A stretch of DNA of 64,000 nucleotides, taken from contig DAOSLF010000003.1 of the NCBI GenBank assembly GCA_035368605.1, positions 889 through 64,888 of the forward strand, given 5' to 3'. The position numbers and the translations under genes were made by a program. The notes beneath the pieces are model-generated. The model was not told where the DNA came from, did no database searches, and was given only the letters and a program-made list of their open reading frames with translations. How positions within the stretch are numbered: the first letter of the stretch is position 1; every line of letters starts with the position of its first letter. Positions 27,995 to 53,700 of the stretch are shown in pieces. The stretch is from Candidatus Omnitrophota bacterium (GTDB lineage Bacteria; Omnitrophota; Omnitrophia; Omnitrophales; Aquincolibacteriaceae).

Positions 27995-28000
27995 TAAAAA

Positions 28001-28030
28001 TTTTTAGTTTTTGGCTTTCGGCTTTTGCAA
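28001..28030 (-). promoter_or_regulatory. Putative sigma70-type promoter giving a leaderless transcript for the 524-aa gene
   Basis: On the minus strand: TTGCAA (28030-28025), 18 nt, TAAAAA (28006-28001), 6 nt, then ATG at 27994. No SD; AT-rich surroundings. Confidence 0.4.
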
Positions 28031-28059
28031 AACTTTAATGAACAAGGTCCCGCCAAAAC

Positions 28060-28863
28060 TTACATCATTCCGAGAACATGGCCCATATGATAGAGACCCG
28101 TCTTCTTTTTCGCAAGGAATTTTGCCGCCAGAAGCGCGCCCCGGGCCAAAGCTTCGCGGGAAGTAGCCTTGTGGACCAGTTCGACACGCTCCCCATCCCC
28201 GAAAAACGACACCGTATGTTCACCGACCACGTCGCCGCCCCGCATGGCGAATACGCCGATCTTCCCTTGCTGCCGGGCGCCGGTGTCCCCTTCGCGGCCA
28301 CAGACCAGATCCTTCGCCGGGTCCCTGCCTCTTGCATCGGCCAGAATTTCGGCCAGTTTAAGAGCGGTGCCGCTCGGCGCGTCCTTTTTCATCCGGTGGT
28401 GGATTTCCATGATCTCGAGGTCGTAGCTTTCGTCGAGGACCTTGCCCGCGAACGCCGCGAGGCGGAACAGGAGGTTCACCCCCACGCTCATGTTGGGCGA
28501 CTGGACGATCGGTATCTTCTTTGAAGCGAGGGCGATTTTTTTCATCATCCCGGGAGGAATCGCGGTGGTCCCGATCACATACTTCTTCTTCGCCGCGACA
28601 CAGGCCGCAAGGTTATCCGGCAGCGCCGAAAAATGACTGAAATCGATCAGGACATCCGACGTCTTCATGACCGCGACCGGACTGGAATCAATCCGGACAT
28701 TAAGGAGATCGCCGCCGATCAAGGAACCGATATCCATGTCCAGTGTCGCGTGGCCGCGCTGTTCGATGCCGCCCGTGATCCTGAACGCCCTGTCCTTCGC
28801 AGCGAGCTTCAGGATGATCTTTCCCATCCTGCCCGCCGCGCCCGCCACCGCCAATCTGATCAT
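28060..28863 (-). CDS. dapB: 4-hydroxy-tetrahydrodipicolinate reductase
   Basis: MIRLAVAGAAGRMGK... and the signature EIHHRMKKDAPSGTA. ATG 28863 is preceded by AAGGAGAAGGG. The listed longer ORF overlaps dapA. Confidence 0.9.
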   Translation of the reverse strand: MIRLAVAGAAGRMGKIILKLAAKDRAFRITGGIEQRGHATLDMDIGSLIGGDLLNVRIDSSPVAVMKTSDVLIDFSHFSALPDNLAACVAAKKKYVIGTTAIPPGMMKKIALASKKIPIVQSPNMSVGVNLLFRLAAFAGKVLDESYDLEIMEIHHRMKKDAPSGTALKLAEILADARGRDPAKDLVCGREGDTGARQQGKIGVFAMRGGDVVGEHTVSFFGDGERVELVHKATSREALARGALLAAKFLAKKKTGLYHMGHVLGMM

Positions 28864-28877
28864 ACCCTTCTCCTTAT

Positions 28878-28901
28878 ACCACTCCAACCTACGAGGTTGG
28901 A
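28878..28901. repeat. 24-nt hairpin repeat copy A (ACCACTCCAACCTACGAGGTTGGA) in the dapA-dapB spacer
   Basis: Identical 24-mer at 35001-35024. Core palindrome CCAACC-TACGA-GGTTGG. Confidence 0.8.
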
Positions 28902-28907
28902 TTTTGG

Positions 28908-29792
28908 TTAAACGATTTTCAACGTTTTGAGAACTGCCCGCAGTTTCTTCACGTTCTCCGGTTTCATCTCGCAGAGCGGAAGCCGCAGCTCCGGCTTGAT
29001 CATCCCCATCATCCCGAGCGCCGTCTTGGCCGGAATGGGATTCGTCTCGATGAAGACCGCTTTGGAAAGAGGATAGTGTTTCTTGTGGAGTTCCCGCGCC
29101 TTCGCCATATTGCCGTCGAGCGCCGCCCACACCATGTCATGAACGAGCTTCGGCGCGACGTTCGCCGACACCGAGATCACACCCACCGCCCCGGCCGCGA
29201 TCAGCGGGAAGGTCAGGCTGTCCTCGCCCGAAATGACGGGAAGGTCGCAGAGCTGCATGATCTGGTCCGCCTGGTCCATGCTCCCGCTCGCTTCCTTGAT
29301 CGCGACAATATTGTCGATCTTCGAAAGCCGCGCCACGGTCTCAGGCGCGATCGACACTCCGGTACGCCCCGGCACGTTATAAAGGACGATCGGGATGTCA
29401 ACCCGGCCCGCGAGGTATTCGTAGTGGCGGTAGAGACCTTCCTGCGTCGGCTTGTTATAGTACGGCGTCACGATCAGCGCCGCGTCCGCGCCGGTTCGCT
29501 TCGCATGCTGGACAAGGCCGAACGCCTCCGCGGTATTGTTCGACCCGCACCCCGCAATCACGGGGACGCGCCCGTTCACGTAATCGACGACGAACGACAT
29601 TGTGTCACGGTGTTCCTCATGCGACATCGTTGCGGACTCCCCCGTCGTGCCGCAGGGAATGATCACGTCCGTCCCGGCCTTCAGGTGGAAATCGATGAGC
29701 CCCGCCATCGCCTTGCGATCGACCTTACCGCTCCTGAACGGCGTGACAAGCGCAACCATGGAACCCGCGAACCTTATTTTCTTTTTAGCCAT
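28908..29792 (-). CDS. dapA: 4-hydroxy-tetrahydrodipicolinate synthase
   Basis: ALVTPF...CGTTGESATMSHEEH...IVAIKEASG (Schiff-base Lys context). Strong SD GGGAGAAGGAAG. Confidence 0.92.
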   Translation of the reverse strand: MAKKKIRFAGSMVALVTPFRSGKVDRKAMAGLIDFHLKAGTDVIIPCGTTGESATMSHEEHRDTMSFVVDYVNGRVPVIAGCGSNNTAEAFGLVQHAKRTGADAALIVTPYYNKPTQEGLYRHYEYLAGRVDIPIVLYNVPGRTGVSIAPETVARLSKIDNIVAIKEASGSMDQADQIMQLCDLPVISGEDSLTFPLIAAGAVGVISVSANVAPKLVHDMVWAALDGNMAKARELHKKHYPLSKAVFIETNPIPAKTALGMMGMIKPELRLPLCEMKPENVKKLRAVLKTLKIV

Positions 29793-29816
29793 GTTCTCTT
29801 CCTTCTCCCTGCCTGA

Positions 29817-30629
29817 TTAAAGAAAATATTCGCCCCGATAGACAACCTGCGCCTTCCCCTGAAGGAAGGCCTTTGTGACGACGGTACCTTTGCGCTCCAG
29901 ATCGATCACAAGCTTCTCGCCGCCCCTCGTGTGGACCGTGACCGGTGTCGCGACATACCCCTTGAGCACGCTCACGACGGAAGAAGCCGTCGATCCCGTC
30001 CCGCACGCGAGCGTCTCGTTCTCGACACCGCGCTCGTACGTCCGGACCATGATCTCGCGCTTGCTCTTCACCTCGACAAAATTCACGTTCGTTCCCGCCG
30101 GCTTGAACTTCGCATGCGTGCGGACTGCCCGTCCGACGGTGGCAACATCGATCTTCCCGAGCCCCTCCACAAAGATCACGATATGCGGGACACCGGTGTC
30201 GACGAACGCGTAGTGGAGCCGGTGGCCGGAGACCTCAAGCATGCCGCTCATCTCAAAAATCCTCGGCTTCACAAGCTGGACCTTCACGTCACCGCTTTGT
30301 CCGACTGCGGCCTCAATGAGTCCGGAGCCCGACTCAAAGATCATCTTTGGGGGCAGTTTGATAACTTCGCGCGCATACAGGGCAATACAACGGAAACCGT
30401 TCCCGCAGGCCGCGGCCTCGGAACCGTCCAGGTTGATGATCCGCATCCTAAAATCCGCCTTCGCGGACTTTTCATAAAGCAGGACGCCGTCCGCGCCCAC
30501 TCCCTGATGAAGCTCGCAGACCCGCTTCGAGAAAGCGGCGGCGTTCTTTACGACCCCCCGTCGGTTGTCCACAACCACGAAATCGTTCCCCGAGGCGACC
30601 ATTTTATAGAAGGGTATTGTTTTTCTCAT
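29817..30629 (-). CDS. dapF: Diaminopimelate epimerase
   Basis: FYKMVASGNDFVVVDN, with catalytic Cys contexts CGNGFRC and ACGTGSTAS. Confidence 0.92.
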   Translation of the reverse strand: MRKTIPFYKMVASGNDFVVVDNRRGVVKNAAAFSKRVCELHQGVGADGVLLYEKSAKADFRMRIINLDGSEAAACGNGFRCIALYAREVIKLPPKMIFESGSGLIEAAVGQSGDVKVQLVKPRIFEMSGMLEVSGHRLHYAFVDTGVPHIVIFVEGLGKIDVATVGRAVRTHAKFKPAGTNVNFVEVKSKREIMVRTYERGVENETLACGTGSTASSVVSVLKGYVATPVTVHTRGGEKLVIDLERKGTVVTKAFLQGKAQVVYRGEYFL

Positions 30630-30788
30630 GATAACGTCTTGATAAACCTGCGGTTAGGCGGGCGTATTCTATCAAATCCCCCCCGGGAATCCAAAAGGAT
30701 TGATTGGAAAGGAGCCGGGGAACCGCACGAAGAGTTTTGCGGCCTCTTTCCGGGCCCCCGGATCAAAACTTCGCGAAGGCGGGACAAA

Positions 30789-31013
30789 TCAGGTCTGATT
30801 GTCGCTTTCGGGATTCGTTTTATCGAGTTTCTTGCACACGTCCCTCTTACAGATGCATCCCGTCAACTCCTTCACAATGACGGCCACACCTAGCACGGTC
30901 AGGGCAATCGGGGCCCAGGAGACATTCCACCAGGCGAACACGATCACAAGCACTCCGGCGAGCGCGGAACAGCAACAACACGGACTCTTGTGACTTTCTT
31001 TCTTTTTTTCCAT
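30789..31013 (-). CDS. Small Cys-rich membrane protein (74 aa)
   Basis: ATG 31013 preceded by GGGAGGGGG. MEKKKESHKSPCCCCSALAGVLVIVFAWWNVSWAPIALTVLGVAVIV... has two TM helices, a CCCC run and CICKRDVC. Confidence 0.55.
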   Translation of the reverse strand: MEKKKESHKSPCCCCSALAGVLVIVFAWWNVSWAPIALTVLGVAVIVKELTGCICKRDVCKKLDKTNPESDNQT

Positions 31014-31201
31014 GACCCCCTCCCTTTCTCGGTTAAGCGGCTCAGGCCGGCATCGTCTCACTCATGTTCATGCCGCCCCCTTTCACTTTTATCCACGGGC
31101 ATTCCTTCTGTTGTTTCATTTCTTTCCACTGCTCGGCCGTTGGGATGGCCTTGCGTTCGGCGTCCTTATGGATCGCAATCCACTTGGCCTGCGCCTTGAG
31201 A

Positions 31202-31246
31202 AATGGGGTCAGTCACCATTTCCCTGAAATGGTGACTGACCCCATT
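31202..31246. repeat. 45-nt perfect palindromic (REP-like) element copy 1, likely terminator of the hss-odc operon
   Basis: AATGGGGTCAGTCACCATTT CCCTG AAATGGTGACTGACCCCATT: 20-bp stem, 5-nt loop, 6 nt after the decarboxylase stop. A second copy lies at 46914-46958. Confidence 0.85.
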
Positions 31247-31252
31247 ATTTAT

Positions 31253-32434
31253 TTATACGAGAATGACCTTGGCAGGTTCGAAGCCGTTGAAATTGGGGAC
31301 AGCGCTCGCGCAGGAGTAGGCGCCGATATTCTTGACGTAAACAACATCCCCGACGAACAACTCGGGGAACTCTTCGTTCGATGTGAGGATATCAAGCGAA
31401 TCGCAGGTCGGGCCCGCGATCACGCTCATGGTCTTCTGCCCGCGTCGCAAGGTCTTGAACTCGTACTTGCAGTGATCGAACATCATCCCTGAAAAATCCT
31501 GGTAGATGCCATCATTGATGTAGTAGAAGTTCTTGTTGTCGCGGAAGGCCTTCCCCACCACCTGCGTCACGAGCACGCCGGAGGGACCCGCGAAAAACCG
31601 CCCCGGCTCGGCGATAAAATGAGTGGATTTCGGAAAGAGCTCCTTCATCTGCTTGCGGATCTGCGCGGCCATCCGCTCAAAGTTGATGCCGATCTCGTTT
31701 TCAAAGTGAGGTATCGGGAACCCGCCTCCGATATCGACGATCGAAAGCGGCATGCCGTTCTCTTTGGCCTCCCTGAAAATCCCGGCCGTGAGCTCGAGCG
31801 CCTGCAAATAATTTTCGACGTTCGTCGACTGCGAACCGACGTGAAAGCTCACGCCTTTCGGCACGAGCCCGAGGCTTTTCGCCTTCCGCAAGAGACAAAA
31901 CCCCTGGTCCGGTTCCGCGCCGAACTTAAGCGACAGCTGGACGACCGAGCCGCGGTTCTCGACGCGGATCCTCAAGATCACGTGCGCTCCGGGGAAACTC
32001 TCCGCGATCTTGTAAAGCTCGGCTTCGTTGTCGAAGGTCATGAGCCGGACGCGGCGCTTGCGGGCGGTGACGATATCCTCTTTCGACTTGATCGTATTCG
32101 CGAAGATGATGTGGCTCGGTTTCGCGCCCTGCTTGAGGACGAGTTTCATCTCGGCCGCGCTCGCGACGTCGAAGCAGGCCCCGAGCTTCGCGAAATATTT
32201 GACGATCCGCGGATGCGGATTGGCCTTGATCGCGTAATAAGGCGTCACTTCCGGCAGGGCCTTTCGAAAGCGGTTGAACTGCTTCTCGAGGACACTCTTG
32301 CGGATCAAGAGAAAGGGCGTCTTATGCTTTTTCAGCATTTGCCGGATCAGATTCTCGATACCCGAGGACTCCGTCGGCCTGACCGCCTTGTTTAAAAACG
32401 AAATGCTCCCACTCTCAAGAAGGGGCTGTTTCAT
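31253..32434 (-). CDS. PLP-dependent Orn/Lys/Arg decarboxylase (group IV, ornithine-decarboxylase-like)
   Basis: YYAIKANPHPRIV (PLP Lys), VDIGGGFPI, GPTCDSLD. Lies 6 nt downstream of hss. Confidence 0.85.
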   Translation of the reverse strand: MKQPLLESGSISFLNKAVRPTESSGIENLIRQMLKKHKTPFLLIRKSVLEKQFNRFRKALPEVTPYYAIKANPHPRIVKYFAKLGACFDVASAAEMKLVLKQGAKPSHIIFANTIKSKEDIVTARKRRVRLMTFDNEAELYKIAESFPGAHVILRIRVENRGSVVQLSLKFGAEPDQGFCLLRKAKSLGLVPKGVSFHVGSQSTNVENYLQALELTAGIFREAKENGMPLSIVDIGGGFPIPHFENEIGINFERMAAQIRKQMKELFPKSTHFIAEPGRFFAGPSGVLVTQVVGKAFRDNKNFYYINDGIYQDFSGMMFDHCKYEFKTLRRGQKTMSVIAGPTCDSLDILTSNEEFPELFVGDVVYVKNIGAYSCASAVPNFNGFEPAKVILV

Positions 32435-32440
32435 TCCGGA

Positions 32441-33943
32441 TCAACCCCTGTCGTCCACGAGGAAGGAGTTGAACTGCCAAAGCTCGTCCTTTTTCGGCGC
32501 CTTGGCCCCGAACCTCAGGTACTTCGTGTTGAGATTCTGAAGCGGCGTCCAGTCCGAGGGGATCGAAACGAACGGGACGATGTAAGGGGTCGCGAACTTC
32601 AGGATGAACTCGTGATCGATATCATCCGGGAGCAGAAAACCCTTGCGCGGATTGTCGATCATCCAGAGCGCCGCGGCGACCACGGAGACCGCCACCTGGA
32701 GAGTCGTCGCCTGCTGGTGCGCGACCAGTTTGCGCGTCGTGTGGATGTCGAGAAGCGAACCGCACCACCAGGACGTGAAATCATGTCCCATCAGGAGCAC
32801 ACCGAGCTCGTCGCGACCGTCAATGATATCGTCCGAAAGGATGCGCTGGTCCTCGTGCAGCTTGTACTGGCGCATCCGGAGCTCCTGCATCGAAAGGACC
32901 GCGGAATCGCAGGGGCAGTACGCGTAATGCACGGTCGGGCGGTACACGGCCTTGCCGTTCTTCCATACCGTGAGACGGTCGGAGATCGAAAACGCCTCGC
33001 CGTGGCGGATCACCATGCCGTTGATCTCCCCACAGGGCACCCACGAACGAACAAACGTGTTCATGCCAAGCGTGCCGAGGCAAATCTGGTTCTTCGGCCC
33101 CGTCCTGTGCTCATAGCCGTCCCTGGGAAGTTTCTTCTCGTGAGTCCCCCAGCCGAGTTCGGCCGGCGCGACACCCTCCTCATAGAACCCTTCGATCGAC
33201 CAGGTGTTCACGAACTCGTTGACGCGTTTCGGAACGTCCGTGACCTGCGTGTCTCGTTCGCTGATATGGATAACCTTGACGCCTGTTGTCTGCGCGAGCT
33301 TCGCGAAGTTCTTCCCGGCAAGAAAGCGCTCGAGGTTCTTCGCGCGCGGATCCCGCGGCTTTTCCTTCAGAATCTTCTTCGCGATATCGATCAGGGCCTT
33401 CTTTGTGAAATGGGACACAAGGCCGGGATTCGCGCCGTGGTCGACGATCGAAGTCGCGCCCTTCTCGTCGCCCCACTTCTCCTTCATGAGCTTGCGAAGC
33501 TTCATGTGGCGATAGTAGAGCGTGTATTGGGTCGGGTCAGTTCGCTTGTCGTCACGGTAAGGGTCCCATTCCTCGATCGAGGTGTTGACATAGAGGATGT
33601 TGTTTGCGCGACACCAGTCGAGGATCTCCCATGCGTCGATATTCCAGGCGAGGTCGATGATCATATCGCCGCACCCGACGTATTTCGCAAGAAGCTTCCT
33701 GTAATTGTCCCTCGTGACGCGATCGAAGACGTAGCGGACGCCTTTCTTCAGCGCGTCTTTTACACGGTGGCGGTTGTCGACGAAGTCCATAATCGTGATG
33801 TTCTTCGCGGGCATGTCGAAGTGACGCAGGATCAGCGGTGTCGCACATTGCGACACACCCCCGCACCCGATAATCAAGACCTTTCCGTTGAACTTCACGC
33901 GGGTCTCGGGGATGCTGGCTTTGACCTTAGGGTATTTGAACAC
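32441..33943 (-). CDS. hss: Homospermidine synthase (bacterial type)
   Basis: GTG start with GGAGGGTGA upstream. IIGCGGVSQCATPLILRHF, VTRDNYRKLL, GANPGLVSHF, ISERDTQ, FVNTWSIEGF, AELGWGTHE, VYRPTVHYAYCPCDSAV, DELGVLLMGH are collinear with bacterial HSS as I recall it (Blastochloris viridis). Confidence 0.85.
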   Translation of the reverse strand: MFKYPKVKASIPETRVKFNGKVLIIGCGGVSQCATPLILRHFDMPAKNITIMDFVDNRHRVKDALKKGVRYVFDRVTRDNYRKLLAKYVGCGDMIIDLAWNIDAWEILDWCRANNILYVNTSIEEWDPYRDDKRTDPTQYTLYYRHMKLRKLMKEKWGDEKGATSIVDHGANPGLVSHFTKKALIDIAKKILKEKPRDPRAKNLERFLAGKNFAKLAQTTGVKVIHISERDTQVTDVPKRVNEFVNTWSIEGFYEEGVAPAELGWGTHEKKLPRDGYEHRTGPKNQICLGTLGMNTFVRSWVPCGEINGMVIRHGEAFSISDRLTVWKNGKAVYRPTVHYAYCPCDSAVLSMQELRMRQYKLHEDQRILSDDIIDGRDELGVLLMGHDFTSWWCGSLLDIHTTRKLVAHQQATTLQVAVSVVAAALWMIDNPRKGFLLPDDIDHEFILKFATPYIVPFVSIPSDWTPLQNLNTKYLRFGAKAPKKDELWQFNSFLVDDRG

Positions 33944-34018
33944 GATCGCTCACCCTCCATTGTTTGAAATTTGACAATAACCGTCACAAAAAACTTTTTC
34001 CCGTGAATCGGAAACCGG

Positions 34019-34047
34019 ATATTACATCATATCGTTTTCTGCATCAA
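34019..34047 (-). promoter_or_regulatory. Putative promoter of the hss-decarboxylase operon
   Basis: Minus strand: TTGATG (34047-34042), 17 nt, TAATAT (34024-34019). Confidence 0.4.
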
Positions 34048-34135
34048 CCACTAAACCCCGAAAAAACATATTTTTTTAAAAATTCCCCGCCGAAGGCCGA
34101 GAGCCAGGCCTTCAGCCCCAAGCCGCCATTGCGCC

Positions 34136-34164
34136 TTGACGGAAGCGGGCTTTACGTGGAGAAT
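34136..34164 (+). promoter_or_regulatory. Putative promoter of the TIGR04073-like gene pair
   Basis: TTGACG (34136-34141), 17 nt, GAGAAT (34159-34164) with TG at -15/-14. SD AAGGAG at 34181. Confidence 0.35.
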
Positions 34165-34191
34165 CTTCCCGCTGTCCAAAAAGGAGCCTTT

Positions 34192-34527
34192 ATGAAAAAA
34201 ATTCTTTGCGCGTTCCTCGCCCTTTCTGTTCTGACATCCGCGACGCCGGTCTTCGCGAATTTCGACAATTTTCAGAAGAGCCCCTGGACCGAAGAGAAGA
34301 CCTATGTCGATAAATCGGTCGGCAAGCTCGCCTTCGGTCTCACGAACATCACAGCCGGCTGGACGGCCCTCTTCTTCGAAACCGCGAAACACGGCAACAT
34401 CTTCGCGGGCATCGCAAAGGGTGTCTGGCGCACCGGGACCAACACCGTGGGCGGCGTTCTCCATGCGGCTACCTTCCCCGTCGCGGTGGATATCCCCCTT
34501 CCTGACGGAGGCGTGAAATTCGAATGA
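34192..34527 (+). CDS. Small secreted protein resembling the exosortase system-associated TIGR04073 family
   Basis: ATG 34192 after AAAGGAG. Signal peptide MKKILCAFLALSVLTSATPVFA. The pattern KLAFGLTNITAGW...G...G...TFPV fits my recollection of TIGR04073 (KLxRGxxNxxxGWxE...TFPxP). Confidence 0.55.
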   Translation: MKKILCAFLALSVLTSATPVFANFDNFQKSPWTEEKTYVDKSVGKLAFGLTNITAGWTALFFETAKHGNIFAGIAKGVWRTGTNTVGGVLHAATFPVAVDIPLPDGGVKFE

Positions 34528-35135
34528 AACGCTTCCTCGCGCTCGCCCTTCTATTGATGATCGCTCTCGCTCCCTCCGCGGTCGCAACGCCATGGGCCGA
34601 AAAGGAAGGTTACGGCGAAAAGACCAAAGGGAAGCTTGCGTTCGGTCTCCGCAACACGTTCCTCGGCTGGACCGAAATGTTCTCGGAGCCGAAGCGCTAC
34701 AAGTTCGACCTCAAGAAGAGCGAATGGGAAGGGTTCTGCATGGGAATCTCGAAGTTCGTCTTTTACACGGCGGACGGTCTGATCCAGCTCGCGACCTTTC
34801 CCATTCCCGTCGACTTCCCCGACTTCGGGGAGGGAGCGGTCCCGGACCTCGGAAAGAAAAAGGAAGGGCCGCCGAAACCGTGGGAGGTTCACGGAAAATC
34901 AAGGTACAGCGTAATTCCCGCCTCGGAAGTCCCGGCCACGATCCGCGTCACCAAAGCGAAGTCACCCGCTCCCGTTCCGCCGCCGATCCAGACTCCCCCG
35001 ACCACTCCAACCTACGAGGTTGGAATGGTTCCCACGACTTCTCTAGCGGAAACCGCGGCCCAGGATACTTCCGGGGTTCCCGAACCGCCGACTCTTGTCG
35101 CGACGCCGGTCCCCGACCTGCCCTACTCGAAATAA
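34524..35135 (+). CDS. TIGR04073-like paralog with Pro-rich C-terminal extension
   Basis: ATGA overlap with the upstream paralog. GKLAFGLRNTFLGWTEMFSEP...LIQLATFPIPVDFP, then a low-complexity tail of about 100 aa (PAPVPPPIQTPPTTPTYEVG...). Confidence 0.6.
   Translation: MKRFLALALLLMIALAPSAVATPWAEKEGYGEKTKGKLAFGLRNTFLGWTEMFSEPKRYKFDLKKSEWEGFCMGISKFVFYTADGLIQLATFPIPVDFPDFGEGAVPDLGKKKEGPPKPWEVHGKSRYSVIPASEVPATIRVTKAKSPAPVPPPIQTPPTTPTYEVGMVPTTSLAETAAQDTSGVPEPPTLVATPVPDLPYSK
35001..35024. repeat. 24-nt hairpin repeat copy B, in-frame inside the Pro-rich tail of the 34524..35135 gene
   Basis: Identical to 28878-28901. Encodes TTPTYEVG. Confidence 0.8.
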
Positions 35136-35412
35136 AAACCGCACCCGGGGTTACCCGTTGCGGCGTTTGACTCACGAATCCTGTTCAGCTTCGGACCTGA
35201 TACTCGCGGGCGGAATTCCCTTCGCATTCCACAAAGGCATGCTTCAAGCATTCTCGATCACAACCTGGCAACAACCCTCCGATCCCCGATCCTCCGCCCG
35301 CGCGTGAACATACCCCGAGAAGACCAGGTCAGGGATCAGCACAGGCAGGAAAAAGCTCTGCGGGGACCGTTTGCACCGCATCACACCGATGCGATGTTCG
35401 CTCTTTTCCCTA

Positions 35413-36237
35413 TTACTCCGCCGCCAGAAATCCGTGGACGATGTTGACGAACACCTCGCGCTCTTCCATATGGATCGAGTGGGCCACGGCGGGGATGCAC
35501 CGGTAAACGCTGCCAGGGATCATCTTCGAAAGCGCCTCCGCTTCTTCCGGAAGGATCAGCACGTCCTCCCCGCCCTCGAGAACAAGCGTCCGGGCCTTGA
35601 TCCCTCCGAGACGCCCGCGTGCGTCGAACGAAGCGACCGCGTCAATCTGCCCCTTGAATCCGGGAAGCTGCTGCCGGTAACGATCGCGGATGCCCCGTTT
35701 CACGAGCGCCGCAACGAAACTTTCCCGGGAAAGAACGCTCGGCGAAAAAAGCCAGCGGGTCCATTCGCGGAGCCACGCCTCGAGATCCCCCCCCTGCGCA
35801 AGGTCCCTGTAAAATTTCAGGAAAAGCTCGTTGTTCCTCCCGGAAGAAACGGCCGCGGTGCTCGACAGGACGAGCCGGTCGACGCGCTCCGGATACCGGA
35901 TCGCAAGCTCCTGGGCAATAAAACCTCCGAGGGAATGACCCAGAACATGCGCCCGCCCGACCTTGAAATGATCGAGCACCCGCAGGACGTCCTCCGCCAT
36001 TTCGATGACGCTGTACGGCTTTCCCGGAATCGAACTGCGCCCCGCGCCCCGGTTGTCGAGCGTCAGGATGCGGTACTGCTTCGGAAGTCTCGCGATCACC
36101 CCGTTCCAGTTCGAGCTGTCGGTCCCAAGCCCCGCGATCAAAAGAAGCGGCGCCCCCTCCCCGCGCGACTCGCAGTAGATCGCGACCTCGCCCGGAAGTT
36201 TCTCCCCCTTATGCGTTCGTCGTTCGTGAGTGGTCAT
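35413..36237 (-). CDS. Alpha/beta-fold hydrolase
   Basis: LLLIAGLGTDSSNW, nucleophile elbow GHSLGG, C-terminal His context AVAHSIHME. ATG 36237 preferred over TTG 36291. Confidence 0.8.
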   Translation of the reverse strand: MTTHERRTHKGEKLPGEVAIYCESRGEGAPLLLIAGLGTDSSNWNGVIARLPKQYRILTLDNRGAGRSSIPGKPYSVIEMAEDVLRVLDHFKVGRAHVLGHSLGGFIAQELAIRYPERVDRLVLSSTAAVSSGRNNELFLKFYRDLAQGGDLEAWLREWTRWLFSPSVLSRESFVAALVKRGIRDRYRQQLPGFKGQIDAVASFDARGRLGGIKARTLVLEGGEDVLILPEEAEALSKMIPGSVYRCIPAVAHSIHMEEREVFVNIVHGFLAAE

Positions 36238-46204: not shown

Positions 46205-46915
46205 ATGAAATCCATGAAAAAGACACCTCAGATCACCAAGTCCCTTCTCAAGAAGTCATTCGGCCTGACGGTCAAAAAAGTCCCTCTTTACGAAGCCGCG
46301 CTGACACACCCTTCCTTCCGGCATGAAAACCAGATCAAGGCCAAACTCGAGGATTTCGACCGTCTGGAATTTCTCGGGGACTCGATCCTGAACGAAGTGA
46401 TCTGCCAGAGGATCTACGCGGATTTTCCGGACGCCGACGAGGGCATGCTTTCGAAGCTCCGGTCGATACTCGTTTCGCAGAAGATCCTCAGCCGCATCGC
46501 AGCAAAATTCAAGCTTCACAATCTGATCCGGCTCGGGAACAGCCTGGGCCAGGCCATGAAAACGCCGTATAAATTCAAACTGATGACAGACTCGATGGAA
46601 TCGATCTTTGCGGCGGTCTTTTTCGATCTCGGCCGGAAAAAAACGGAGGCATTCATCCTGAAACATTACGCGGAATATATCGACGCCAAACGGCTATTCC
46701 GCCTTGATCCCAACCCGAAGAGCACGCTCCAGGAACTGACGCTCAAGAAATGGCAGAAACTTCCCCAATACACCCACAAGTTCGGTCCGAAAGGCGTGAC
46801 TACGACAGTGTCCATAGACCGCCGGCGCAAGGCTTCGGGATTTCACAAGATCAAGAAGGAATCGGAGCTGAAGGCGGCACGGGCCCTTCTGAAACTTCTC
46901 CGGCAGGAACAATAA
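46205..46915 (+). CDS. rnc: Ribonuclease III
   Basis: AALTHPSF...ERLEFLGDSILN signature and a C-terminal dsRBD. The start is ATG 46205, or 46214 if the mRNA is leaderless. Confidence 0.9.
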   Translation: MKSMKKTPQITKSLLKKSFGLTVKKVPLYEAALTHPSFRHENQIKAKLEDFDRLEFLGDSILNEVICQRIYADFPDADEGMLSKLRSILVSQKILSRIAAKFKLHNLIRLGNSLGQAMKTPYKFKLMTDSMESIFAAVFFDLGRKKTEAFILKHYAEYIDAKRLFRLDPNPKSTLQELTLKKWQKLPQYTHKFGPKGVTTTVSIDRRRKASGFHKIKKESELKAARALLKLLRQEQ

Positions 46916-46958
46916 TGGGGTCAGTCACCGTTTCCCTAAAACGGTGACTGACCCCATT
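46914..46958. repeat. 45-nt perfect palindromic (REP-like) element copy 2, bidirectional terminator between rnc and asmA
   Basis: AATGGGGTCAGTCACCGTTT CCCTA AAACGGTGACTGACCCCATT. It overlaps the rnc TAA stop and ends 3 nt before the asmA TAG stop. It differs from copy 1 by a compensatory A-T to G-C pair. Confidence 0.85.
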
Positions 46959-46961
46959 ATT

Positions 46962-50774: not shown

Positions 50775-53700
50775 TTACTGTTTAAAGGAAGCCCACTTCC
50801 TCGTGACCGGATCATAGCTTTTCAGCACGGATCTCCTTCCGGACTTAACCGTATAGATCTCTTTCAGGCCGGTAGCCGTCATGACGTAATAGAGCCCCGA
50901 GCGGTATCCCCTCCGGTCCTGCGAGCTCGGCTTCTCGGAAACCGCGCCCGTCGTAAGGTTCATGACCCGGACCTTGTTTCCTGAGATCGTCTGATACGCC
51001 AACGTCGCAAGCGACGGAACGGCGGTCCATCCCGCAGGGATGGGCCGCGGCACGATCTTGAGCGTGTTCATGTCGACCCAGGTCTGCGAGCCGTTCGTTT
51101 TGGTGATCACTGCGTTCATTCCTTCAAAAACAACCGACTTTGCCGCTCCGGAGACCCTCAGCTTTTGGGTCGCGTCCGCGATCTTTTGCACATAGATACT
51201 TCTCGGAGCAATGCCGTAGACCACGGTTGCGCCGTCAGGAGAAACGTCATAGACGCTGCTGACCGGAACCGTCGAATACCGCCCCCCTTTATAAACCTTG
51301 AATAGTACCTTCGACTCTCCTGTCTTCAGATCCAGCAGGATCAGCTTGCTATATCTATTCACGGTCTCGATCTTGAACGCGTAGTTCACGTTCGATGCCG
51401 CCCGAGTCCAGCCGGCGGGCAAAGGAGGATCCATCAACTGCAGCGTGTCGAGATCCACATACTTTGTTTCCACCGCTCCGCCCGAATGCGTGACCGTGCA
51501 GACCGCGACACTTCCCCGGTACTCCACAGCGGTTACGGCTCCCGAAAGCGTCATTTGCGCGGCAGTTCCCAGATTGATGATGAAGGTCTTGCTGTAATCC
51601 GCATCCCCGTTGCCGGTCGCGGAAACACCGACCGTCAGAACGGTCTTCCCGGAGGGCGTCCGGTACACATCGATCGTTCGATACGAACCCGACCCCGAAC
51701 TCCCGCCCGCCGCCTGGCTCGCCGGATAAAAAATCTTGACCGGCGTCAGAACCAGGTGCTCCGTCCCGGCGGAAGCATCATAGACAAACACTTCGTAGGT
51801 GTTGCTGTAGGTGATCTTCGTCGGAACAATGAGATACCCCTCATCCAGCACCGCATCCGCCTGCTCGAGAAGCGTGTGGTGAGACAAAGTGCTTGCGAGG
51901 GTCGTTTGATCCACCACATAAACATCCCCGATCCGGGTGCCGTTCCGGTAAGCCGTAGCCATTACCACCGAAACATTCCCGTCAGAGAGAAAACCGACGC
52001 TCTGGGGAATACCCGTGATGTCCGCATGTTTCGTGGCATCACCAACCTGCTGAACACGCAGCCAGCCCGTTGCCGGGGTGGCGTAATCGTTCCGCACGCC
52101 GAAATAAACCAGCTCGCCGCTCGGGGAAATGTCCATCGAGGTATAACTGTTCGGCGGCGATTGGAGAGAATAGAGTTCCCGGATCTCGCCGGTCCCGAGG
52201 TCCTGGATTTTTAATCTCGTGTAGTTGCCATGATTGTCCGGATTGATCCAATCCTCGGTCATAAACGCATAATTCGCATTACCCGCCGCCCGAGTCCAGC
52301 CGGCGGGCAAAGGAGGATCCATCAACTGCAGCGTGTCGAGATCCACATACTTTGTTTCCACCGCTCCGCCCGAATGCGTGACCGTGCAGACCGCGACACT
52401 TCCCCGGTACTCCACAGCGGTTACGGCTCCCGAAAGCGTCATTTGCGCGGCAGTTCCCAGATTGATGATGAAGGTCTTGCTGTAATCCGCATCCCCGTTG
52501 CCGGTCGCGGAAACACCGACCGTCAGAACGGTCTTCCCGGAGGGCGTCCGGTACACATCGATCGTTCGATACGAACCCGACCCCGAACTCCCGCCCGCCG
52601 CCTGGCTCGCCGGATAAAAAATCTTGACCGGCGTCAGAACCAGGTGCTCCGTCCCGGCGGAAGCATCATAGACAAACACTTCGTAGGTGTTGCTGTAGGT
52701 GATCTTCGTCGGAACAATGAGATACCCCTCATCCAGCACCGCATCCGCCTGCTCGAGAAGCGTGTGGTGAGACAAAGTGCTTGCGAGGGTCGTTTGATCC
52801 ACCACATAAACATCCCCGATCCGGGTGCCGTTCCGGTAAGCCGTAGCCATTACCACCGAAACATTCCCGTCAGAGAGAAAACCGACGCTCTGGGGAATAC
52901 CCGTGATGTCCGCATGTTTCGTGGCATCACCAACCTGCTGAACACGCAGCCAGCCCGTTGCCGGGGTGGCGTAATCGTTCCGCACGCCGAAATAAACCAG
53001 CTCGCCGCTCGGGGAAATGTCCATCGAGGTATAACTGTTCGGCGGCGATTGGAGAGAATAGAGTTCCCGGATCTCGCCGGTCCCGAGGTCCTGGATTTTT
53101 AATCTCGTGTAGTTGTTACGATTGTCCGGATTGATCCAATCCTCGGTCGCAAAAGCATAATTCGCATTACTCGCCGCTCGAGTCCAGCCCTGGGGGATTG
53201 CCGGGACATGATAAAGGTCCATCGTCCCCTGGAGGCCTATCCCCTCAATGATGACATAGATCGTTCGCACTTTCGAAAGATCGACCTGCTGGAACAGTGT
53301 CGCGGGAATCCGGTAAATGTTTTCCTCGCCGGATTCGATACCCGTCAAATGGACAAAAGCCTTCTGGTCATTTGCGTCCACAAATTCCAGTTTGATGGTT
53401 CCGGCGGTTCCCTTGAGCCCGAAAACAAACTCACTGAAACCGCTGAGGTCGTTCGTTTCAATCTCCGGAGTTCCGTAATGGTCGAACGTCAATCCCCCGC
53501 CAGCCCAACCGAATATGCCTGTGTTGTAGGTGAAAGAGCCCCCTCGGCCGTGCGCCGTCGCGGCGGCATTCGCATCCCCTCCATAAATCACCGTGATCAC
53601 CGGATTCCCGGGCAGGGGCGTCAGATTCTCGGAGGTCAGGAAAGTATCCGGGAGGATTTTCGGCTTGTAAGGATGTTCTCCCAACCGCACCTGGAGTTCC

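What the first reader, a model, noticed from the sequence alone, without database searches (positions are those of the whole stretch)
35001..35024. 24-nt hairpin repeat inserted in-frame in a coding region (RPE-like behaviour)
ACCACTCCAACCTACGAGGTTGGA (core CCAACC-TACGA-GGTTGG) occurs identically at 28878-28901, where it is intergenic between dapA and dapB. Here it lies within the Pro-rich tail of the TIGR04073-like paralog and encodes TTPTYEVG. A chance 24-mer match in 64 kb is very unlikely (expected order 1e-5). A palindromic element found both in spacers and in-frame within a disordered protein tail recalls Rickettsia palindromic elements. Those elements insert into ORFs without disrupting them.
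Basis: partly seen in the sequence, partly recalled or inferred. Interest (0 to 1): 0.55.

Follow-up and report, generated by a model that had tools for sequence, protein, structure and literature searches.

The report
Short hairpin repeat invading genes
The 24-base repeat is real: it is a short mobile-type DNA hairpin (a REP-like element) that in other genomes flanks its likely transposase gene, and in this Omnitrophota genome it sits once between dapA and dapB and at least twice in frame inside protein-coding genes.

Summary
The 24-mer is exact at 28878-28901 (dapA/dapB spacer) and at 35001-35024 (in frame, TTPTYEVG), and chance does not explain it.

Its core is a 19-nt hairpin, TCCAACCTACGAGGTTGGA, with an 8-bp stem and a 3-nt loop. 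A variable spacer and an outer ACC/GGT box flank it, giving 31-nt hairpins at 28878-28908 and 35000-35030.

A third exact copy lies 3.8 kb beyond the window in the same strain, in frame inside queA.

The same 19-mer occurs in about 80 distinct contexts in Omnitrophota, Saccharibacteria, Berkelbacteria and Desantisbacteria. In 8 of 92 fetched loci it lies in the same locus as an IS200-like Y1 gene, mostly flanking or abutting it. That gene's best matches are REP-associated tyrosine transposases (RAYT; E. coli TnpA-REP, PDB 4er8).

Five of its six reading frames are open. Copies or related variants sit in frame in NadE, PurB, a class IV aminotransferase, MtnA and, repeatedly, one QueA loop.

So this is a new REP family. 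It is not a Rickettsia RPE, but it behaves like one. A clean 8-codon insertion is not shown, because orthologs already have Tyr-Glu at the loop position. No RAYT gene was found in the roughly 72 kb of this genome that I could read. REPs inside ORFs are already described, so interest is moderate.

The parts
28878..28908 (.). REP-like hairpin, copy 1 (31 nt). Layout: outer box ACC, spacer AC, invariant 19-mer 28883-28901, spacer TTTT, outer box GGT. On the dapA-dapB mRNA (minus strand) it starts at the last A of the dapA stop codon and ends 14 nt before the dapB ATG, just upstream of the AAGGAG ribosome-binding site.
   Evidence: Sequence. Fold of the minus-strand RNA: -16.8 kcal/mol, z -3.5. 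No Rfam match. The syntenic relative L111 has no such hairpin in its dapA-dapB spacer.
35000..35030 (.). REP-like hairpin, copy 2 (31 nt). Layout: G-ACC, spacer AC, 19-mer 35006-35024, spacer AT, GGTT. It lies in frame in the C-terminal tail of the gene 34524-35135 and encodes (P)TTPTYEVGMV.
   Evidence: Sequence and codons. Fold of the + strand RNA: -17.5 kcal/mol, z -3.7. Orthologs lack the palindrome but share Tyr-Glu at the loop position.
34524..35135 (+). Host gene of copy 2: a 203-aa secreted or lipoprotein-like protein, weakly TIGR04073-like. The N-terminal part, about 130 residues, is conserved. The C-terminal tail is fast-evolving and rich in Pro, Thr and Ala. The last residues (PYSK, versus PYSRIK or SSRIK in orthologs) are conserved, so the reading frame runs through the hairpin.
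   Evidence: The AlphaFold2 model is poor throughout; residues 160-186 have pLDDT below 50 and no secondary structure is predicted after residue 121.
28908..29792 (-). dapA (4-hydroxy-tetrahydrodipicolinate synthase). Its stop codon abuts hairpin copy 1.
   Evidence: ORF list. Pfam DHDPS on the identical gene in L002.
28060..28863 (-). dapB (dihydrodipicolinate reductase). Its start codon lies 14 nt downstream of hairpin copy 1 on the mRNA.
   Evidence: Gene call and Pfam DapB_N/DapB_C in L001 and L002, mapped to the window through 100% identity. Sequence.

Best explanation
The two 24-mers are copies of a small, non-autonomous REP-type element (repetitive palindromic hairpin).

Anatomy. The invariant top is TCCAACCT-ACG-AGGTTGGA. 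Below it lies a short, usually self-complementary spacer and an outer ACC/GGT box.

Inferred mechanism. The hairpin forms on single-stranded DNA. It is recognised and copied to new sites by a RAYT-like HUH/Y1 tyrosine transposase encoded elsewhere in the genome. New copies persist where they do little harm. One such place is directly after a stop codon inside an operon (dapA/dapB). Another is in loops, linkers and tails of proteins, because five of the six reading frames of the hairpin are open.

Copy 2 is therefore translated as part of a probably disordered tail. Copy 1 puts a stable hairpin of about -17 kcal/mol into the dapA-dapB transcript, where it may affect mRNA decay or dapB translation.

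Shown: the repeat itself, its family, its link to Y1 genes in other genomes, and the in-frame copies.

Inferred: mobilisation by a RAYT in this genome, and any effect on expression.
For: 1. Exact repeat, not chance. A third exact 19-mer with the same ACC...GGT frame lies in queA on a contig that is 100% identical to the window over 11.7 kb.

2. A scan of GTDB genomes gave 21 exact 19-mers in 19 loci, where I estimate about 4 by chance. They came from five named Omnitrophota MAGs, Saccharibacteria, Berkelbacteria and a Desantisbacteria MAG. A metagenome scan added 73 loci with GC content from 0.29 to 0.62.

3. Eight of 92 loci carry a Y1 gene in the same locus as the hairpin. It matches Pfam PF01797 at E about 1e-9 to 1e-11. 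Its best NCBIfam hit is REP-associated tyrosine transposase (E 1e-16 to 1e-19). Its only PDB hit is E. coli TnpA-REP 4er8, with the HuH and Tyr motifs aligned. In L017, L021, L043, L067 and L073 the gene has hairpins on both sides. In L030 the hairpin starts 2 nt after the stop codon.

4. Flanks pair within a copy far more than between copies. The mean is 3.1 consecutive Watson-Crick pairs against 0.98 in the control (highest of 1000 shuffles 1.42). Covariation score is 0.221 against 0.125, with 0 of 500 shuffles reaching it, and pair 10:30 is paired in 91% of copies using six pair types. ACC is present in 49 of 79 left flanks and GGT in 53 of 79 right flanks.

5. Inverted doublets resembling REPINs occur in L038, L051 and L089.

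6. In-frame copies in known genes: the NadE interdomain linker, PurB, a class IV aminotransferase (about 18 extra residues inside the domain), the MtnA C-terminus, and a PMT_2 membrane protein. The QueA loop carries this core or a related variant in several Omnitrophota; DNA was checked in L112, L114, L115 and L116.

7. The syntenic relative L111 lacks the hairpin at both window sites.

8. No Rfam family matches.
Against: No RAYT-like gene was found in the roughly 72 kb of this genome that I could read: the window and its 100%-identical extension L112. A cognate enzyme in this organism is therefore assumed, not shown.

The canonical 5' GTAG or CGTC tag of described REPs is absent. GTAG occurs only across the loop on the complementary strand.

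Copy number is low. There are 3 copies in about 72 kb here and 1 to 4 exact copies per representative genome, whereas classical REPs number in the hundreds.

For copy 2 no empty site is known. The orthologous tails already have Tyr-Glu where the hairpin loop lies, and the tail is not longer than in orthologs.

In QueA the residues encoded by the hairpin's 3' half occupy the place and length of a native strand. Simple insertion therefore does not describe every copy.

Flanks differ between copies within one genome, which a plain copy-and-paste element does not predict.
Confidence: 0.72

Rival explanations
1. The hairpin is a selected cis-acting RNA or DNA signal, for example a binding site for a conserved host protein or an mRNA-stability or translation element. 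On this view it is kept or created in place at each locus, and its presence next to Y1 genes is secondary.
For: The apical 19 nt are identical in organisms with GC content from 0.29 to 0.62, and next to Y1 proteins that are only 37-64% identical to each other.

Extended stems covary.

At the same codons of queA the sister species L114 has a different palindrome (CAACAC/GTGTTG). Two of its pairs are changed on both sides relative to L112.

Copy 1 sits exactly between a stop codon and a ribosome-binding site.
Against: Orientation relative to transcription is not constant. The dapA-dapB mRNA carries the CGU loop, while the coding copies carry the ACG loop.

Host genes and positions are unrelated to one another.

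The hairpin flanks Y1 genes on both sides in five loci, which is the REPtron layout.

It occurs in three different reading frames within one queA insert in L115.

No Rfam family matches.
Confidence: 0.12
2. The two 24-mers are direct repeats left by a local rearrangement. They would be the ends of an inserted or duplicated 6.1-kb segment (28878-35024), or att-like sites, rather than members of a dispersed family.
For: The two copies are in the same orientation, 6123 bp apart, with sharp borders of identity.
Against: The relative L111 has the same gene order across both borders without the repeats.

There is no integrase or transposase between the copies.

A third copy lies about 33 kb away in queA.

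The same 19-mer occurs in dozens of unrelated genomes.
Confidence: 0.02
3. Copy 2 did not arise by insertion. A REP sequence was written over a pre-existing similar coding stretch (ACN TAC GAR ...) by short-patch conversion or template switching that depends on microhomology. The gene gained little or no length.
For: Orthologs share QT(P/S)xxY(E/A), with TAC GAA or TAC GCG at the loop position.

In QueA, YEVGSGVRK has the length and place of the modal native GELIAQSGK and is modelled as a strand.

In PurB, the hairpin-encoded PTY aligns with native PAF/PAL and there is no net gain in length.
Against: No known RAYT or REP mechanism does this.

Alignments in low-complexity tails and variable loops are loose.

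Survivorship alone could produce the pattern, if only those insertions persist that mimic the native residues.

L106 and L115 show clear net insertions of 15-20 residues.
Confidence: 0.15

Closest known systems
REP / REPIN elements with their RAYT (TnpA-REP) transposases ('REPtrons'), especially group 3 REPs of Stenotrophomonas maltophilia
   Same: Both are short palindromes of 20-40 nt. The S. maltophilia REP has an 8-bp perfect stem and a 3-nt loop (PMC8266576), and so does this one. The element is dispersed, mostly between genes. It flanks a single Y1/HUH gene whose closest solved relative is E. coli TnpA-REP. Some copies form inverted doublets.
   Different: There is no GTAG or CGTC tag at the 5' foot; an ACC/GGT box lies at a variable distance instead. 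Copy number is low. The same 19-nt top is shared across several candidate phyla, rather than being specific to a species or genus. The Y1 proteins score below NCBIfam's RAYT cut-off (58-70 bits against 80) and carry a C-terminal extension of about 55 residues.
Intragenic REPs described by Di Nocera et al. 2013 (PMC3733652)
   Same: REPs lie entirely within ORFs of known proteins and are translated in frame. They often abut stop codons.
   Different: Those elements are GTAG- or CGTC-tagged families of Proteobacteria and others. The present family and its hosts (Omnitrophota and CPR phyla) are not among them, and no paper in the library holds this sequence.
Rickettsia palindromic elements (RPEs)
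   Same: Both are palindromic repeats found in spacers and also in frame inside functional genes, adding a peptide to the protein (PMC10969869).
   Different: RPEs are about 150 bp, each encoding a conserved peptide of tens of residues, and are Rickettsia-specific families. No RAYT link was seen for RPEs in the passages read here. This element is 19-31 nt and encodes 6-10 residues.
IS200/IS605 subterminal hairpins
   Same: Both are single-stranded DNA hairpins recognised by a Y1 HUH transposase of the same superfamily (Pfam PF01797).
   Different: In IS200/IS605 two different imperfect hairpins lie at the ends of one element that also carries tnpA and tnpB. Here the hairpins are scattered on their own and the Y1 gene looks single-copy. 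The IS200 equivalog scores very weakly (E 5e-4).

Membership tests
REP/REPIN-RAYT system | Short (about 20-40 nt) palindrome able to fold as a stem-loop on one strand | tested here: met
   8-bp stem and 3-nt loop, with an outer ACCA/UGGU stem. Fold energies are -14 to -22 kcal/mol with z about -3 to -3.7. Covariation is seen in the extended stem.
REP/REPIN-RAYT system | Many dispersed copies per genome, mainly extragenic | tested here: inconclusive
   Three copies in about 72 kb of this genome, two of them inside genes. Representative genomes hold 1 to 4 exact copies each. Degenerate copies exist. A whole genome of this organism was not available.
REP/REPIN-RAYT system | Conserved GTAG (or CGTC) tetranucleotide at the 5' foot of the hairpin | tested here: not met
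   The 5' flanks show ACC at variable distance, not GTAG or CGTC. GTAG is present only across the loop-stem junction of the complementary strand.
REP/REPIN-RAYT system | A RAYT (Y1 HUH) gene flanked by the cognate REPs (REPtron) | tested here: met
   Met in other genomes. L017, L021, L043, L067 and L073 have hairpins on both sides of the gene, and in L030 the hairpin abuts it. Family assignment rests on Pfam, NCBIfam and PDB matches. No such gene was found in the roughly 72 kb of this genome that I could read.
REP/REPIN-RAYT system | Binding and cleavage of the single-stranded REP by its RAYT | not testable with these tools
   This needs a biochemical assay of the kind used in PMC8266576.
Rickettsia palindromic elements (RPE) | Elements of about 100-150 bp belonging to the RPE sequence families of Rickettsia | tested here: not met
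   The unit is 19-31 nt and the host is Omnitrophota. RPE size is taken from PMC10969869.
Rickettsia palindromic elements (RPE) | Copies inserted in frame in functional ORFs | tested here: met
   Seen in the tail gene, QueA, NadE, PurB, Aminotran_4 and MtnA. This is a shared behaviour only, not evidence of membership.
MITE (miniature inverted-repeat transposable element) | Terminal inverted repeats around an internal region (70-300 bp), with target-site duplications | tested here: not met
   The whole element is a single hairpin of 31 nt or less. No consistent direct duplication flanks the copies. Only a doubtful CCCNCG pair appears at copy 2 (sequence).
Intrinsic (Rho-independent) terminator | GC-rich hairpin followed by a U-run on the transcribed strand at a gene end | tested here: not met
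   A T-run follows copy 1 only on the + strand, which is antisense to dapA and dapB. Copy 2 and the queA copy lie inside ORFs and have no T-run.
Any Rfam RNA family | Match to a curated covariance model | tested here: not met
   No match at the hairpins, either at gathering score in 18 loci or at E up to 1 in window 28000-36000.

The most novel reading that the evidence does not exclude
This is an undescribed REP-RAYT lineage shared by Omnitrophota and several CPR (candidate phyla radiation) phyla. Its 19-nt hairpin top is more conserved than its enzyme. It colonises coding sequence as readily as spacers and recurs at one QueA loop. It spreads, or is homogenised, by a process that makes each copy's flanks self-complementary and favours sites already resembling the hairpin centre. 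That would be a mode of REP propagation (fold-back synthesis or microhomology-dependent conversion) not described for known RAYTs.
Probability: 0.3. Interest if true: 0.65.

Novelty: new member of a known kind. Interest (0 to 1): 0.45.

Why it matters
REP/RAYT systems have been studied almost only in Proteobacteria. This sequence-defined family occurs in Omnitrophota and in small-genome candidate phyla, and it can be tracked with a single 19-mer.

It shows that tiny hairpin elements contribute peptide segments to housekeeping enzymes such as QueA, NadE and PurB in these lineages. It also explains some odd low-complexity inserts and spurious ORFs in their annotations.

The invariant hairpin, paired with diverged Y1 proteins, offers a compact system for testing how RAYTs recognise their substrates.

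For the window itself the practical message is modest. The repeat is a selfish or domesticated element, not a regulatory site specific to the dap genes.

Tried and rejected
- Chance match: rejected.
- Assembly artefact: rejected. All the near-identical contigs I read that reach the sites, from independent assemblies, keep the copies.
- Frameshift variant P0002: it is only a low-coverage contig with many frameshifts, not a real variant.
- att-like direct repeats around a 6.1-kb island: rejected by synteny in L111 and by the third copy.
- Known RNA family: none.
- Integron attC: the inner stem fits RYYYAAC/GTTRRRY by eye. However, the element is far shorter than an attC site (57 nt or more), has no cassette context and sits next to Y1 genes, so I dropped the idea. 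This comparison rests on my own knowledge and was not tested.
- Terminator: only on the antisense strand of copy 1.
- Convergent PTYEVG peptide motif: rejected, because one copy is non-coding and other copies use other frames.
- L026, L058 and L085 (Euryarchaeota Lpd): a chance hit with no extended stem.
- Search for a RAYT in the window and its flanks: nothing found.
- Extending the window leftwards: the protein look-up failed.
- P0025 locus: no DNA was available.
- Viral contigs: no copy.
- AlphaFold2 of the 203-aa protein: too poor to say more than that there is no predicted structure in the tail.
- PDB homologs of PurB and NadE: too distant to decide between insertion and replacement.
- Not attempted: a covariance model of the hairpin. 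The 19-mer is invariant by the way the copies were collected, so a model would add nothing beyond the mismatch searches.

Full report
**Observation**

The 24-mer ACCACTCCAACCTACGAGGTTGGA is present exactly twice on the + strand, at 28878-28901 and 35001-35024. None of 100 dinucleotide-preserving shuffles produced a match, even with three mismatches allowed.

- The first copy lies between the dapA stop codon (TAA, minus strand, 28910-28908) and the dapB start codon (28863-28861). The genes were identified by ORFs and by Pfam DHDPS and DapB_N/DapB_C hits on the identical genes of contigs L001 and L002.
- The second copy starts at codon 160 of the ORF 34524-35135 and reads TTPTYEVG.
- That ORF resembles TIGR04073 only weakly, at E 6.4e-5 and below the cut-off.

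All the near-identical contigs I read from separate JGI, ENA and Logan assemblies that reach the sites keep the copies, so this is not an assembly artefact. Looser searches found no further copy in the window. Protein homologs place the organism in Candidatus Omnitrophota.

**Anatomy**

The repeated core is a 19-nt hairpin, TCCAACCT-ACG-AGGTTGGA, with an 8-bp stem and a 3-nt loop.

- In both window copies an ACC box and a 2-nt spacer precede it, which is why the identity reaches 24 nt.
- A GGT(T) box follows after 2 or 4 nt.
- The folded units therefore span 28878-28908 and 35000-35030.
- Fold energies are -14 to -22 kcal/mol depending on strand, with z about -3 to -3.7.
- On the dapA-dapB mRNA the hairpin begins at the last A of the stop codon and ends 14 nt before the dapB ATG, next to the AAGGAG ribosome-binding site.
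- Five of the six reading frames of the 19-mer are open: SNLRGW, PTYEVG, QPTRL, SNLVGW and QPRRL. Only PTS* is closed (read directly from the sequence).

**A third copy in the same genome**

Contig Ga0116243_10000152 is represented by loci L002 and L112 and is 100% identical to the window over 20.6 and 11.7 kb. It extends past the right end of the window.

About 3.8 kb beyond that end, an exact 19-mer with the same framing (ACC-GA-19mer-TCG-GGT) lies inside queA. It is in the same reading frame as copy 2 and gives ...GGEETDPTYEVGSGVRKTSIF....

**The family**

An exact scan of one genome per GTDB species found 21 copies in 19 loci, where I estimate about 4 by chance.

- The hits came from five named Omnitrophota MAGs, two Saccharibacteria, two Berkelbacteria, a Desantisbacteria MAG and unclassified MAGs.
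- One more hit lies inside the Lpd gene of a Euryarchaeota MAG. It has no extended stem and looks like one of the expected chance hits.
- A metagenome scan added 73 loci with GC content from 0.29 to 0.62.
- No copy occurs in IMG/VR viral contigs.
- The sequence appears in no paper of the library.
- No Rfam family matches it.

Across 79 distinct contexts, the bases outside the 19-mer pair with each other within a copy far more than between copies.

| Measure | Observed | Control |
|---|---|---|
| Mean consecutive Watson-Crick pairs beyond the 19-mer | 3.1 | 0.98 (highest of 1000 shuffles 1.42) |
| Covariation score over 77 copies | 0.221 | 0.125 (0 of 500 shuffles as high) |

The first flanking pair is formed in 91% of copies, using six pair types. 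ACC occurs in 49 of 79 left flanks and GGT in 53 of 79 right flanks.

**Link to a transposase**

In 8 of the 92 fetched loci a gene of about 225-236 codons lies in the same locus as the hairpin, mostly right beside it.

- Hairpins lie on both sides of the gene in L017, L021, L043, L067 and L073. In L030 the hairpin starts 2 nt after the stop codon.
- These proteins match Pfam Y1_Tnp (IS200-like) at E about 1e-9 to 1e-11.
- Their best NCBIfam hit is REP-associated tyrosine transposase, at E 1e-16 to 1e-19 but below the curated cut-off.
- Their only match among solved structures is E. coli TnpA-REP (4er8), with the HuH and catalytic Tyr motifs aligned.
- They are 37-64% identical to each other.
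- Inverted doublets of the hairpin, like REPINs, occur in L038, L051 and L089.

This is the layout of a REPtron. By its 8-bp perfect stem and 3-nt loop, the hairpin most resembles the group 3 REP of Stenotrophomonas maltophilia (PMC8266576). It lacks the GTAG or CGTC tag at the foot that defines the described REP superfamilies (PMC3733652).

**Copies inside genes**

Besides the two coding copies of this genome, the exact 19-mer with an extended stem lies in frame in several known genes:

- the linker between the nitrilase and NAD-synthase domains of a NadE (L059);
- a variable segment of PurB (L069), within a palindrome of about 36 nt in a genome of 32% GC;
- an Aminotran_4 domain (L106), which has about 18 extra residues there;
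- the extreme C-terminus of an MtnA/IF-2B protein (L018);
- a PMT_2 membrane protein (L087).

Seven of the eight in-frame copies I judged to be real elements have the ACG-loop strand as the sense strand (my count).

QueA is the most telling case. Among 120 Omnitrophota QueA proteins the loop after R-A-L-E-S is modally 14 residues (SVNxAGELIAQxGK), but many lineages carry in-frame additions there. Where I could read the DNA, these additions are palindromes of the same or a related core:

- L115 has AACCTCGTAGGTGCACCTACGAGGTGCACCTACGAGGTT. This is an 18-bp-stem composite that uses three frames of the core (NLVG, PTR and TYEV).
- L116 has two direct copies of CAACACC(C/G)GGTGTT.
- The sister species L114 has CAACAC-CGG-GTGTTG at exactly the codons where L112 has the 19-mer. 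Two base pairs differ on both sides.

REP-type hairpins therefore enter, or are maintained in, coding sequence repeatedly in this phylum. REPs inside ORFs are already known for GTAG and CGTC families (PMC3733652). The Rickettsia RPEs are the classical, much longer example (PMC10969869).

**Is copy 2 an 8-codon insertion?**

Not cleanly.

- The tail is translated. Its last residues (PYSK) match the orthologs' PYSRIK or SSRIK.
- Four orthologs of 48-60% identity have no palindrome at this place. No match with up to 5 mismatches was found.
- However, three of them read PPPxQT(P/S)xxY(E/A), where the window reads PPPIQTPPTTPTYEVGM. The TAC GAG of the hairpin loop thus aligns with an ancestral TAC GAA or TAC GCG. 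The local difference is about +3 and +1 codons.
- The window's tail is the shortest of the four that share this motif: 52 residues after PPP, against 56-64.

A similar overlap with native residues appears elsewhere. In QueA, YEVGSGVRK takes the place and length of GELIAQSGK. It is modelled as a strand, and the low-confidence extra loop lies upstream at residues 272-279. In PurB, the hairpin-encoded PTY aligns with native PAF or PAL.

Two explanations remain open. Either only insertions that mimic the native sequence survive, or the element spreads preferentially to sites that already resemble its centre. I could not separate them.

For copy 1, the syntenic relative L111 has an unrelated 55-nt spacer without a hairpin. 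That fits a lineage-specific gain.

**Mechanism and limits**

The best-supported reading is a non-autonomous REP element mobilised in trans by a RAYT-like Y1 enzyme acting on the folded single strand. The element is tolerated right after stop codons and in protein loops, linkers and tails, because most of its frames are open.

- Shown here: the repeat, its family, the association with Y1 genes, and the in-frame copies.
- Inferred: that this organism has its own RAYT, since none lies in the roughly 72 kb I could read; that the copies arose by transposition; and that the hairpin in the dapA-dapB mRNA affects decay or dapB translation.
- Unexplained: why flanks differ yet stay self-complementary between copies of one genome, and why the hairpin top is more conserved than the enzyme.

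**Verdict**

The RPE comparison is right about behaviour and wrong about identity. This is a new family of a known kind of element (REP/RAYT). Interest is moderate. The more novel possibility, an unusual mode of spread across candidate phyla, is not excluded.

Noticed in passing
window 31202-31249 and 46911-46961: A second, unrelated palindromic repeat (AATGGGGTCAGTCACC...GGTGACTGACCCCATT) with 21-23-bp perfect stems. The two copies are 94% alike. Each sits in a short spacer at gene ends, and the first is followed by a T-rich tail. It could be a terminator-like REP family of its own. A weak spurious Rfam hit to mir-9014 falls on it.
   Followed up: no
window 51366-53189: Tandem units of 888 bp, in three copies 71-96% alike. 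The contig L112, identical elsewhere, has one unit fewer. This is a copy-number difference between assemblies or strains.
   Followed up: no
L112 4341-4369 (same strain, about 3.8 kb beyond the window's right end), inside queA L112 3504-4577: Third exact copy of the 19-mer hairpin, in frame in queA (TDPTYEVGSG). The AlphaFold2 model places the encoded YEV in a strand and the extra upstream residues 272-279 in a low-confidence loop.
   Followed up: yes
QueA proteins P0022-P0141; DNA in L114 10490-10506, L115 7100-8224, L116 10001-11143: The loop after R-A-L-E-S of Omnitrophota QueA is a hot spot for in-frame inserts. These look like translations of several different palindromic repeats (for example VIPAKAGIQ..GFPIKAFGND, CHSREGGNPVLDPRLKHSGMT and SETRSLxGAL), besides the TYEV and STPGV types studied here.
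   Followed up: partly
L114 9197-9213 and 10490-10506 (GCA_022705945.1): The sister species has a variant palindrome, CAACACC-G-GGTGTTG, in queA. A second copy with 2 mismatches lies 1.3 kb away in a LOG-family gene, which suggests this species has its own REP variant.
   Followed up: partly
L015 and L113 (ENA ERZ2648042, coverage about 2): These low-coverage contigs of the same organism carry many frameshifts. Protein P0002 is the same tail read partly in the +1 frame, not a biological variant.
   Followed up: yes
L026, L058, L085: The exact 19-mer lies inside the dihydrolipoamide dehydrogenase gene of a Euryarchaeota MAG (L026) and in two metagenome contigs with the identical context. It has no extended stem, and the encoded SNLVGWK looks like ordinary Lpd sequence. 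This is the kind of chance hit expected at this pattern length.
   Followed up: partly
window 31253-33943 (minus strand): An Orn/DAP decarboxylase-like gene and a saccharopine-dehydrogenase-like gene (a polyamine-type pair) sit between dapF and the TIGR04073-like gene pair, inside an arg/dap/lysA biosynthetic cluster. The order is conserved in L111.
   Followed up: no
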